Shown here one piece after another: positions 33,086 through 35,915 of a DNA stretch of 64,000 nucleotides; the stretch's first letter is position 1, and each line of letters opens with the position of its first letter. This DNA comes from Eledone cirrhosa. Its lineage: Eukaryota. The notes under the pieces were generated by a model, which made no database searches, was not told where the DNA came from, and saw only the letters and a program-made list of their open reading frames with translations. The position numbers and the translations under genes were made by a program. Location: contig OZ024745.1 in the NCBI GenBank assembly GCA_964016885.1, forward strand, positions 43,834,001 through 43,898,000. The letters run 5' to 3'.

Positions 33086-33482
33086 TTCGTTTCTGAATTT
33101 GTTTAGCAAGATTCTTTATCTGAAATCGTGTGTTGAAACCGATATTGTTATACTTTGGGAGGGTCATGTTGCCAATAAGAAACACACGCACCAGTTGCTT
33201 TCACTTCAATTTAATTTAATATATATTTATAAATTTACAAATTTATAAATTTCTGGTTGGTTGGTTGGTTCCACAACCAGATAGTTGTTTATATATATAT
33301 AGTCATAGTTCTTTCGTCACACACTCTGTGACCTCTTCAGTGACTGGGGATTTCTTTCTTCGTTTCTGTGCCTTTCCTTTCTTCTATCCTACGCCATTTT
33401 CAATTTTCATTAAATTGAAGTGAAAGCAACTGGTGCGTGTGTTTCTTATTGGCAACATGACCCTCCCAAAGTATAACAATAT
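33086..33482 (-). mobile_element. Penelope-like pLTR fragment: hammerhead, ORF start and 74-bp inverted partial copy
   Basis: Inverted repeat 33142-33215 / 33409-33482. ATG at 33167 (minus) gives [23 protein letters not shown]. Flanked by (TA)n. Confidence 0.65.
33301..33345 (-). ncRNA. Minimal type-I hammerhead ribozyme variant
   Basis: Minus strand: AGTCA CTGAAGA G GTCAC agagtgt GTGAC GAAA GAAC TA TGACT. Confidence 0.75.
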
Positions 33483-33529
33483 ATATATATATATATATAT
33501 ATATATATATATATATATATATATATATA

Positions 33530-34703
33530 TGAAATGGTCATGCTCAGTGTGTAGGAAAGGAGTAGGTAGAAACTCCATTTTATGTCCCAAATGCAAAGTA
33601 TGGGTACATAAAAGATGTAGTGGGATCACAGGTAAGCTAACTAAGAATATAGTTTTATATATGGCCGGTGCTCTGGTGCAATAATTAGCAGCAAGTGCCC
33701 ACAGAATACTAACTCATTCCATTGCACAGATGGTTCTATAGAAATAGTGGACAGCTTCTGTTACCTGGGTGACAAAATCAGCAGTGGGGGAGGGTGCTCT
33801 GAAAGTACAGTAGCTAGAGTCAGAACGGGATGGAAAAAGTTCAGAGAGCTTATACCACTATTGGCCGTTAAAGGGTTCTCTCTAAAAATGAAAGGCAGGC
33901 TGTATGATGCCTGCATACGAACAGCAATGTTACATGGCAGTGAGACCTGGGCATTGTGTGCAGAGGATATACTCAGACTGGAGAGAAACGAAGCTTGCAT
34001 ACTCCGCTGGATGTGTAATAGTAATATACGTGAACGGCAAAGCATAAACAAACTAAGGGAGAAATTAGGAATAAGAGGGATCAGATGTTGTTTACTCGAG
34101 AGAAGACTACGTTGGTATGGTCACGTGATGCGCATGAAAGACGACAGCTGTATAAAAAAGTGCAGGGCAATAAAAATAGACGGTAGCCACGGAGTAGGCA
34201 GACCCAGAAAAACCTGGGACGACTTGATAAATTCCGACCTCACACACTTACACCTCTCCAAGACAATGTCACTGGACCAAGATCTTTGGCGATACACAGT
34301 AATACAGAAGACCCGCCTTGCCTAAGTACAAAGCGAAACCTACAGTCAGTAGGCACCTCTAACAAAATACACCCCGGCCCCACTACCCCTACCCCATCCA
34401 CACCACCCCTCTCAATGTAAAGTTATGTTGGTACCACAACATTCAGCCCGAAACAAACGAGGTCATGTAGGTGTCACGACAAAAAAACACACAGTCCACG
34501 CTGTAATGTGGCCGTGTAGGTAACACGGTAAAAACCTCCCAGTCCACACTGTAAACGTGGTTGGTGTTAGGAAGGGCATCCAACCGTAGAAAACCCGCCA
34601 GACAGTCCTATGCGAGCAAGACAACCACTCTTGCCTCAAGTGGGAAAACTCCCGTCCAAACCCATGCGAGCGTGGAATATGGACGTTAAACGATGATGAT
34701 GAT
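33530..34703 (+). mobile_element. RTE-clade LINE copy E (3' 1.2 kb, frameshifted)
   Basis: ORF 33747-34325, 3' UTR, (GAT)n tail; (TA)n flanks. Confidence 0.93.
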
Positions 34704-35441
34704 ATATATATATATATATATATATATATACACACATATATATATATATATATATATATATACATATATATATATATATATATATACATATATATATATA
34801 TATATATACATATATATATATATACATATATATATATATATATACATATATATATATATATACACATATATATATATATATATATATATATACATATATA
34901 TATATATATATATATACATATATATATACTATGAATAACGAGTTCTAAACTCAAACAGTCCTTTACAATGAAATAGCTCAAAGAAAGAAGTATTTCTGAG
35001 CCGTGTAATACAAGTTAATATAAATTAATATATTTGATAAACACAAATACCAACATATAAGTGTTTGTATTGTAAATGACTAAGTTAGCTAGATTGAAAA
35101 ATACTAATTATAATAATACAGTTTGCCTGTCTCGATTTAAAATAATAAATCAATAAAAACAAATCATATTGGCAAATGGCCGTGGTACTTGGACAAATTT
35201 AAATTTCAAAATCCAAACCTGCTCCGTAGATAAGTTTAAACTTCAAAATCCAAATATGTTTCGATAAATGAAAAAGTGAAAAAATATATATATACATATA
35301 CATATATATATATATATATACATATATATATATATATATACATATATATATATATGCATATATATACATATATATATATATATATATATATACATATATA
35401 TATATATGCATATATATATATATATATATATATATACATAT

Positions 35442-35915
35442 ATTAGTTTAGCGAGGTTTTTTATATGAAATCGTGTGTCGAAACAGATATTGTTATACTT
35501 GGGGAGGGTCATATTTGCGTAATATTGTCAGAATTAATAACAGAACACACTCACTGTTTGGTTGGTTTTCGCTTCTCGCTGTCTTTTATATCTGCGATCT
35601 AACTTACTCGGTCCTCAATGTTGCCATTGACTGACCGACGGTCAAAAATAATACAGATACAATATAGACACAAACACATATATATAGTTTACATAATTTA
35701 CATAAATCTTTCGTTGCACATCTGCAACATCGTCAGTGGTGTTATATTTTTTCCTCCTGTTGTGTTGTATGTCTACGCCATTTTTTTTATTCAGTCTGTC
35801 TATATATTTATTTATTTATTTGCTTGTTTGTTTATTTTATTTTATTTTGTCTTCTTTGCGCATGCGTTTGCGTGTGTGTATAGTGTTATGTGTGCTGTGT
35901 GACTAGTGTGTATAG
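35442..35915 (-). mobile_element. Second member of the MTLPKY/hammerhead family
   Basis: ATG at 35512 gives [23 protein letters not shown]; upstream hammerhead core at 35699-35740. Confidence 0.6.
35699..35740 (-). ncRNA. Hammerhead ribozyme core, weak stem I
   Basis: Minus strand: CA CTGACGA T GTTGCA gatg TGCAAC GAAA GATT TA TG. Confidence 0.6.

What the first reader, a model, noticed from the sequence alone, without database searches (positions are those of the whole stretch)
33086..35915. Two diverged elements pair a non-canonical hammerhead with a conserved ORF start ([19 protein letters not shown])
Seen: at 33.1-33.5 kb and 35.4-35.9 kb (both minus) a hammerhead lies about 135-190 nt upstream of the same ATG. 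Over 22 codons the copies differ by 4 synonymous (CCA/CCC, AAG/AAA, AAT/AAC, CTT/CTC) and 3 non-synonymous changes, while the intervening non-coding sequence is far more diverged. The first copy also has a 74-bp inverted partial duplicate. Inference: this is the N-terminus of the protein of an autonomous Penelope-like element under purifying selection, and a handle for finding the parent of the fold-back family.
Basis: partly seen in the sequence, partly recalled or inferred. Interest (0 to 1): 0.7.

Follow-up and report, generated by a model that had tools for sequence, protein, structure and literature searches.

The report
Octopus Penelope-like retrotransposon end fragments
These are three short repeat fragments sharing the first two dozen codons of a protein, two of them with a minimal hammerhead ribozyme motif upstream, and they are likely the ordinary truncated ends of Penelope-like retrotransposons in an octopus-like genome, with the parent element not found.

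Summary
In detail: two hammerheads 139 and 191 nt upstream of a shared ATG, 4 synonymous and 3 non-synonymous changes, and an exact 74-nt inverted arm. The two copies alone give a weak coding signal (P 0.03-0.07). A third, frameshifted copy at 44134-44202 brings it to 9 synonymous versus 5 non-synonymous changes (P 0.0004-0.003). All three copies run into (TA)n at codon 24-28. Nine short database homologues (one from Octopus bimaculoides) lose similarity at codon 26. [quoted passage not shown] The hammerhead core is canonical, of the usual PLE minimal type. No reverse transcriptase or GIY-YIG endonuclease was found downstream, and no long parent protein was found in the databases, so PLE membership rests on anatomy. 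Selection likely acted on the parent families, not on these dead copies. The copies share no sequence with the window's fold-back palindromes, so they are not a handle on that family. Verdict: new member of a known kind, low interest.

The parts
33086..33408 (-). Copy 1 main body: 5'-truncated terminal repeat from -241 to about +82 relative to the ATG, ending in (TA)n
33409..33482 (+). Copy 1 inverted arm: exact copy of -48..+26, ends in (TA)n, lacks the tail
   Evidence: 74/74 identity; 70 nt after masking
33301..33345 (-). Copy 1 minimal type I hammerhead: stem I 5 bp, stem II 6 bp, stem III 2 bp, predicted cleavage after 33306
33293..33302 (-). TATA-like box CTATATATAT directly 3' of the hammerhead (copy 1)
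   Evidence: motif match only
33389..33400 (-). 12-nt motif AAAATGGCGTAG shared with copy 2, upstream of the hammerhead
   Evidence: 9 of 2000 shuffles share a 12-mer
33084..33167 (-). Copy 1 ORF start, 28 codons ([28 protein letters not shown]), running into (TA)n
35441..35915 (-). Copy 2: 5'-truncated terminal repeat from -403 to about +72, between two TA tracts, with no inverted arm
35700..35739 (-). Copy 2 minimal hammerhead: core intact, stem II 6 bp, stem I only 2 bp, predicted cleavage after 35703
35678..35687 (-). TATA-like box CTATATATAT (copy 2)
   Evidence: motif match only
35773..35784 (-). 12-nt motif AAAATGGCGTAG (copy 2)
35441..35512 (-). Copy 2 ORF start, 24 codons ([24 protein letters not shown])
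44134..44202 (+). Copy 3: codons 5-27 only, with a 1-nt deletion, a 2-nt insertion and a stop; same 3' end as copy 1; no hammerhead found
   Evidence: BLAST E 2e-14, nhmmer, codon table, ends

Best explanation
The three copies are truncated repeat ends that hold an ORF start and run into (TA)n, and they are likely the pseudo-LTR-plus-tail fragments left when the reverse transcriptase of a Penelope-like element starts copying inside the 5' end of its own ORF and stops early. SHOWN here: hammerhead motif, TATA-like box, ATG and 24-28 codons in one orientation; shared 3' ends (copies 1 and 3 at about +82, copy 2 at about +72); an inverted arm in copy 1 that ends earlier, at +22 to +26; codon-level conservation. 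INFERRED from published PLEs: (1) a parent in partial tandem is transcribed from a promoter in the pseudo-LTR, so the RNA reads through the 3' UTR and hammerhead into the start of the next ORF; (2) the RT-endonuclease protein binds the 5' part of the ORF RNA and nicks an AT-rich target, here (TA)n; (3) cDNA synthesis starts internally at two preferred sites, which define the pseudo-LTR end (about +25) and the tail end (about +70 to +83); (4) early termination leaves a solo end (copies 2 and 3), while extension from both target strands gives the head-to-head copy 1 with the tail on one arm only; (5) synonymous divergence built up between active parent subfamilies, and the inserted copies then decayed neutrally. 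The hammerhead is predicted to be inactive as a monomer and to need a dimer or protein help.
For: Anatomy: PMC3846280 (section 6) describes a pseudo-LTR holding the first 12 codons, extended to 22 by the tail, with an adjacent inverted pseudo-LTR, a tail optionally on only one of the inverted repeats, and a TATATATA box. Copy 1 has 8-9 codons in the inverted arm, 27-28 with the tail, and CTATATATAT. Mechanism: PMC11167929 maps RT initiation 111-118 nt into the ORF at two sites that bracket the tail, with AT-rich targets. Hammerhead: matches the minimal PLE type of PMC4209133, with a long stem II, an extra base after position 9, a G10.1-C11.1 pair and a 2-bp stem III. Coding signal: 9 synonymous versus 5 non-synonymous changes over three copies, P 0.0004-0.003, 10 of 14 at third positions; the ATG frame beats the other five frames. 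Family: 7 of 15 hits plus 2 more are short homologues. Mean pairwise BLOSUM62 is -0.84 upstream of Met1, 3.0 and 2.6 over codons 1-9 and 10-26, and -0.95 over codons 28-45. One homologue is Octopus bimaculoides A0A0L8I3J7. PLEs make up 6.83% of the O. vulgaris genome in 190 families (PMC13282606 supplement).
Against: No parent was found. No protein continues from this N-terminus into an RT, and no PLE RT or GIY-YIG was seen in 150 of 419 frames of the window. The peptide matches no Pfam family, solved structure or Atlas cluster, and six motif strings gave no relevant match in the PLE supplement of PMC8557442. The tail here (about 45-60 nt) is longer than the 30-40 nt reported. The ORF-start RNA has no stable fold (z +1.2, -0.7, +0.6), unlike the stem-loop reported for the anole element. 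None of the 9 database homologues shows a translated TA tract after the motif, so TA targeting is shown only for the window copies. No cleavage was measured.
Confidence: 0.8

Rival explanations
1. A non-autonomous hammerhead retroelement (retrozyme-like, mobilised by a PLE in trans) that keeps a short ORF of about 27 codons as a functional peptide of its own; no long parent ORF exists.
For: All 9 database homologues lose similarity at codon 26, and 5 of 9 stop within 8 residues after codon 27. No long parent turned up among 1.84 billion representatives or. The synonymous excess is real.
Against: The window copies have no stop of their own and run into (TA)n at different codons (24, 27, 28). 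Residues after codon 26 are unrelated between homologues, which points to flanks. A PLE tail predicts the same boundary. Described non-LTR retrozymes are short tandem repeats with canonical hammerheads (PMC7229834) and non-coding (bioRxiv 10.64898/2026.07.22.740005); these copies are solo. Short-read contigs would be expected to break at this high-copy boundary, which would hide a parent (inference).
Confidence: 0.07
2. The 80-nt block is the start of the ORF of some other hammerhead-bearing retroelement, such as an endonuclease-less PLE lineage, a Terminon-like leader ORF, or a first exon spliced to a distant ORF.
For: The catalytic domains were never seen. Terminons also carry minimal hammerheads (PMC7229834). 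Donor-like GTGCGT/GTGAGT motifs sit at -24 and -42, and in both copies the first AG downstream of the donor-like motif itself is at +13, where copy 3's similarity begins.
Against: Sense-strand hammerhead, ATG within the terminal repeat, tail, inverted arm and interstitial (TA)n insertion together fit endonuclease-bearing PLEs. An intron from those donors to +14 would be only 39 and 57 nt, would remove the ATG, and no upstream in-frame ATG exists. Codons 1-4 are conserved like the rest.
Confidence: 0.08
3. The block is a non-coding cis signal (RT recognition or start site) and the reading frame is incidental.
For: In the anole PLE the first 172 nt of the ORF are needed as RNA (PMC11167929), so an RNA-level constraint probably does contribute. 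The two original copies alone give only P 0.03-0.07.
Against: With three copies, 10 of 14 changes are at third positions and 9 are synonymous; only the ATG frame shows this. Conservation begins at the ATG. No conserved RNA fold was found.
Confidence: 0.05

Closest known systems
Penelope elements of Adineta vaga (Pen2a_Av; PMC3846280)
   Same: Pseudo-LTR holds the ORF start, the tail extends it, an adjacent inverted pseudo-LTR, a TATATATA box; solo pseudo-LTRs occur.
   Different: Here 8-9 and 24-28 codons against 12 and 22; no ORF body in these copies; a target-site duplication cannot be read within (TA)n; no sequence comparison was possible.
PAc, Poseidon PLE of Anolis carolinensis (PMC11167929)
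   Same: Copies end inside the ORF 5' end at discrete sites; AT-rich targets; minimal hammerhead in the sense strand.
   Different: In PAc the ATG lies inside the hammerhead and initiation is at +111-118 in a stem-loop. Here the ATG is 139-191 nt downstream of the cleavage site, ends are at about +25 and +70-83, and no stable fold is predicted.
Minimal type I hammerheads of metazoan PLEs (PMC4209133)
   Same: Canonical core, long stem II, extra base between positions 9 and 10.1, G10.1-C11.1 pair, very short stem III, mostly solo copies, high sequence variability.
   Different: The stem III segments here (AGAACU, AGAUUU) are imperfect palindromes; copy 2 has lost most of stem I.
Hydra-1_Obim and Naiad_Obim/Ovul, the octopus PLEs in PMC8557442
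   Same: Same host genus as homologue A0A0L8I3J7; insertion into (TA)n.
   Different: The Hydra hammerheads listed have 3-4 bp stem III and the Hydra-1_Obim N-terminus reads differently (by eye). Naiads lack canonical hammerheads. Motif strings of this family were not found in the readable part of the supplement, where long sequence lines are cut.
Non-LTR retrozymes (PMC7229834; bioRxiv 10.64898/2026.07.22.740005)
   Same: Short hammerhead-bearing repeats related to PLE pseudo-LTRs.
   Different: Retrozymes are tandem, non-coding and carry canonical hammerheads. These copies are solo or inverted, have a minimal hammerhead and a coding remnant.

Membership tests
Penelope-like elements (EN+) | Telomerase-related RT in the element's single ORF | tested here: inconclusive
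   Copies end at codon 24-28, so the RT cannot be present in them; no parent found
Penelope-like elements (EN+) | GIY-YIG endonuclease | tested here: inconclusive
   None in 150 of 419 frames, including all 65 same-strand frames near the copies; parent not available
Penelope-like elements (EN+) | Minimal type I hammerhead in the terminal repeat | tested here: met
   2 hits against 0 in each of 100 shuffles; sequence and fold only, no activity
Penelope-like elements (EN+) | Terminal repeat contains the ORF start, extended by a tail | tested here: met
   Codon test, ends, boundary among homologues
Penelope-like elements (EN+) | Inverted truncated pseudo-LTR, with the tail on one end only | tested here: met
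   Copy 1 only, 1 of 3 copies
Penelope-like elements (EN+) | 5' truncation with shared 3' ends | tested here: met
   5' ends at -403, -241 and +14; 3' ends at about +72, +82 and +82; n = 3
Penelope-like elements (EN+) | Partial tandem with a full ORF between pseudo-LTRs | not testable with these tools
   No eukaryotic genome collection. The 2.0 kb between copies 1 and 2 is a LINE fragment plus unique DNA, not a PLE body
Penelope-like elements (EN+) | Target-site duplication | not testable with these tools
   Insertions lie in (TA)n and no empty site is available
Hydra clade | Hammerhead with 3-4 bp stem III as listed for the clade | tested here: not met
   2-bp stem III here against File S2 of PMC8557442
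Hydra clade | Insertion into (TA)n | tested here: met
   3 of 3 window copies end in TA tracts
Naiad clade | No canonical hammerhead | tested here: not met
   A full core with stems is present
Penelope/Poseidon, Neptune or Nematis clade | RT phylogeny and linker zinc-finger motif | not testable with these tools
   No RT sequence recovered
Non-LTR retrozymes | Head-to-tail tandem units, each with a hammerhead | tested here: not met
   Each copy is solo; no tandem partner in the window
Non-LTR retrozymes | Non-coding | tested here: not met
   Codon-level conservation

The most novel reading that the evidence does not exclude
This is an octopus-wide family of non-autonomous hammerhead retroelements that has shed the RT but keeps a 27-residue peptide under purifying selection while swapping or rapidly rewriting its non-coding body: a protein-coding retrozyme, in which the peptide might act as the RNA-binding leader or ribozyme helper of PLEs on its own.
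Probability: 0.07. Interest if true: 0.7.

Novelty: new member of a known kind. Interest (0 to 1): 0.22.

Why it matters
On the best reading it matters little. PLE ends are common in octopus (6.83% of the O. vulgaris genome), and the pseudo-LTR, tail and hammerhead layout is published. Its use is practical. The 27-residue profile is a probe for a diversified octopus PLE lineage that does not match the Hydra or Naiad families in PMC8557442. Copy 1 is also a clean natural case of two different 3' ends in one insertion, which would test in a mollusc the two-site internal initiation shown in vitro only for a lizard element. It also explains spurious short gene models such as A0A0L8I3J7, which begins at this ATG. 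If the novel case held, it would be a coding retrozyme, which I did not find described in the papers read.

Tried and rejected
Parent search by protein. A 40-aa single query against longer proteins gave 0 of 2 candidates. The full-length alignment gave 0 of 4118. The core alignment gave 7 of 1800, all 79-151 aa. The HMMER scan gave 15 hits: 7 short homologues were kept and 8 long multi-stretch proteins were dropped as chance. Of those 8, seven share an unrelated internal repeat and one is a zinc carboxypeptidase; none has an RT domain.

Other searches. Pfam, PDB sequence and ESM Atlas searches gave nothing usable. Rfam gave 0 matches at gathering and no hammerhead family among 49 weak matches. 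Prokaryotic genomes gave 0 exact matches to a 25-nt motif.

Rejected ideas. Link to the fold-back palindromes. Copies 1 and 2 as the two pseudo-LTRs of one element: they are too diverged and the DNA between them is a LINE fragment and unique sequence. Copies 1 and 2 as a hammerhead dimer: their stem I strands differ. Weak matches at 40499 and 40730 as further copies: E of 1.4 or more.

Not run: structure prediction, because a 28-residue peptide would not give a meaningful model.

Left unchecked. Cluster membership and flanking DNA of the nine homologues, so whether they carry hammerheads and what dN/dS they give is unknown. The metagenome and viral contig collections. The anole element's GenBank supplement was unreadable and the bioRxiv supplements were closed; full PLE N-termini there might place this family.

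Literature. No relevant paper holds the peptide strings or the accession. A search for octopus plus hammerhead ribozyme found 5 papers (4 listed), only one of them on PLEs. Repbase and Dfam were not searchable, so the family may already be catalogued.

Full report
OBSERVATION. Copy 1 (33086-33482) and copy 2 (35441-35915) lie on the minus strand, each between TA tracts. Each has a hammerhead core with a 6-bp stem II, and the predicted cleavage sites are 139 and 191 nt upstream of ATGs at 33167 and 35512. A strict descriptor finds these 2 in the window and none in each of 100 dinucleotide shuffles. The core is canonical and the architecture is minimal: stem III has 2 bp, and stem I has 5 bp in copy 1 but only 2 bp in copy 2. 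Rfam detects neither. Codons 1-22 differ by the 4 synonymous and 3 non-synonymous changes listed. The 74-nt inverted arm of copy 1 is exact. The spacer from hammerhead to ATG aligns little better than shuffles (68 of 1000 local, 20 of 500 global). Short motifs are shared: AAAATGGCGTAG (9 of 2000 shuffles share a 12-mer), CTATATATAT directly after the hammerhead, AACCAACCAA and GTG(A/C)GTGTGTT (the first two in the same order, the others not tested against chance).

IS IT CODING? For the two copies alone the synonymous excess is marginal (binomial P 0.03-0.07 over transition weights 1-4). A third copy at 44134-44202 (+), found and confirmed, covers codons 5-27 and has a 1-nt deletion, a 2-nt insertion and a stop. 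Against copy 1 it shows 6 synonymous and 2 non-synonymous changes. Pooled over the three copies there are 9 synonymous and 5 non-synonymous changes (P 0.0004-0.003), 10 of 14 at third positions, and the ATG frame has the best ratio of the six frames in both pairings. These are small counts, gapped codons were skipped, and the copies are related, so the P values are indicative. The signal is best read as selection in the past, on parents, since copy 3 is plainly dead.

RELATIVES. An HMMER scan of 1.84 billion representatives gave 15 hits at E 0.001 or better. Eight are long multi-stretch proteins that I dropped as chance. Seven are 58-151-residue predictions with the same motif. A profile search added two more, one of them Octopus bimaculoides A0A0L8I3J7, which begins at the homologous Met. 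Six of the nine are labelled Logan, one UniRef, and two are unlabelled. Among the 11 sequences, similarity starts at Met1 and ends at codon 26 (mean BLOSUM62 -0.84, 3.0, 2.6, -0.95 for upstream, codons 1-9, 10-26 and 28-45). The query covered only this stretch, so the window of similarity to the query is built in; the lack of similarity among the homologues beyond it is not. No long parent appeared. No GIY-YIG or PLE-type RT appeared in 150 of 419 window frames, including all 65 same-strand frames near the copies. The RTs found elsewhere in the window look like LINEs (family labels recalled, not from a call). The host is inferred to be an octopus from this homologue; the window also holds a myosin heavy-chain exon at 10252-10722.

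WHAT IT IS. All three copies are 5'-truncated at different points (-403, -241, +14) and end within a few codons of each other (about +72, +82, +82), and the inverted arm of copy 1 ends at +22 to +26. This is the published end structure of PLEs. In Adineta, the pseudo-LTR includes the first 12 codons, the tail extends this to 22, an inverted pseudo-LTR adjoins, and a TATATATA box is present (PMC3846280, passages and section 6). PMC8557442 describes the same inverted copies and one-ended tails (passages, section 11, supplement searches and part 2 of 59). The hammerhead fits the minimal PLE type (PMC4209133, parts 1-2 of 4). For the anole element, reverse transcription starts inside the ORF at two sites that bracket the tail, targets are AT-rich, and the hammerhead cleaves only with protein and is dispensable for insertion in vitro (PMC11167929, parts 1-2 of 4; its two PDF supplements gave almost no text). 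The conserved ORF start followed by nothing is therefore expected of such ends.

MECHANISM. Shown: the anatomy and the coding signal. Inferred: read-through transcription from a tandem parent, binding of the protein near the ORF start, nicking of (TA)n, internal priming at two sites, early termination, and two-ended extension to give copy 1. Identical arms and an intact hammerhead suggest that copy 1 is young; copy 3 is older (inference). Confidence 0.8. Rivals: a peptide-coding non-autonomous element (0.07), another hammerhead retroelement or a spliced leader exon (0.08), and a purely RNA-level signal (0.05). Against the best reading stand the missing parent, a tail longer than the 30-40 nt reported, no stable fold at the ORF start, and no translated TA tract after any of the 9 homologues. 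Short-read contigs probably break at TA tracts and at the tail boundary, which could explain the first and last points, but I could not test that.

THE FOLD-BACK FAMILY. The window holds palindromes at 12392-12690, 61209-61344 and 63056-63176, among others. Those at 12.4 and 63.1 kb carry hammerheads with a 4-bp stem III, and the 61.2-kb one is 74% identical to the 63.1-kb one. Copies 1-3 match none of nine inverted-repeat regions beyond AT-rich chance, and the peptide profile finds nothing around six of them. They probably come from other PLE families.

MEMBERSHIP AND NOVELTY. It works like a PLE end and meets every structural test that could be run; the RT and endonuclease tests are inconclusive because the copies are truncated. 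It is not Naiad (a full hammerhead is present), unlike Hydra in hammerhead form, and not a retrozyme (not tandem, coding remnant; PMC7229834 passages; bioRxiv 10.64898/2026.07.22.740005 part 1 of 5). The clade is undetermined. PLEs are abundant and varied in octopus (PMC13282606 passages and supplement; PMC8967140 passages), and pseudo-LTRs with short 3' extensions appear in a curation guide (PMC8969392 passages). Seven literature searches found no description of this family; Repbase and Dfam could not be searched. Verdict: new member of a known kind, interest 0.22.

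Noticed in passing
window 63056-63176 and 61209-61344: Related near-perfect palindromes (74% identical to each other). The 63.1-kb one carries a hammerhead on each arm with a U-U mismatch at the base of stem II and an ACAG/CUGU stem III, resembling Hydra-clade hammerheads in File S2 of PMC8557442.
   Followed up: partly
window 12392-12690: A 299-nt near-perfect palindrome with a hammerhead on each arm: long stem II region, 8-bp stem I, palindromic 4-bp stem III. A third hammerhead type in the window.
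   Followed up: partly
window 31640-31825, 20281-20358, 19119-19423, 23814-24066, 15408-15791, 24484-24648: Further palindromes or inverted-arm elements in AT-rich context, with no full hammerhead found by my descriptor.
   Followed up: no
window 33389-33400 and 35773-35784 (-): Shared AAAATGGCGTAG upstream of both hammerheads. It resembles a YY1 site (recalled) and also reads as a start-Ala-stop mini-frame; possibly a promoter element.
   Followed up: partly
window 33191 and 35554 (-), and 44134 (+): Donor-like GTGCGT/GTGAGT upstream of both ATGs. The first AG downstream of these motifs is at +13, where copy 3's similarity begins after a pyrimidine-rich stretch. This could hint at alternative splicing or be chance.
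   Followed up: partly
window 33479-33482 and 35441-35445: Element ends overlap the (TA)n target by 3-4 nt (ATAT), compatible with priming by microhomology; two cases only.
   Followed up: no
protein P0016 (A0A0L8I3J7): An O. bimaculoides gene model that starts with this peptide and continues into unrelated sequence ending in a Cys-x-Cys motif (SWIM-like, recalled; no Pfam support); probably a chimeric prediction.
   Followed up: partly
protein P0009: After the motif it continues with an LPWIG stretch reminiscent of the PLE RT thumb region (recalled); Pfam and the Atlas give no support.
   Followed up: partly
window 10252-10722 (-): First coding exon of a myosin heavy chain (Myosin_N and Myosin_head). 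Copies 1 and 2 lie 22-25 kb upstream on the same strand.
   Followed up: no
window 20404-23300, 24779-26992, 29193-29832, 33531-34703, 2801-3571: Several copies, 89-93% identical, of one LINE whose RT ORF contains a PHD finger; two retain open frames of about 610 codons. RTE-type label recalled.
   Followed up: no
window 43613-43966 (+) and 46372-47889 (-): Fragments resembling restriction-like-endonuclease non-LTR elements (label recalled; weak RVT_1 match at 47503-47889). Copy 3 sits about 170 nt 3' of the first.
   Followed up: no
window 37388-38449 (-) and 55831-60582 (-): A 353-codon Tc1/mariner-like transposase frame (weak Pfam matches), and a frameshifted LINE with zinc knuckle, AP endonuclease, RT and zf-RVT.
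   Followed up: no
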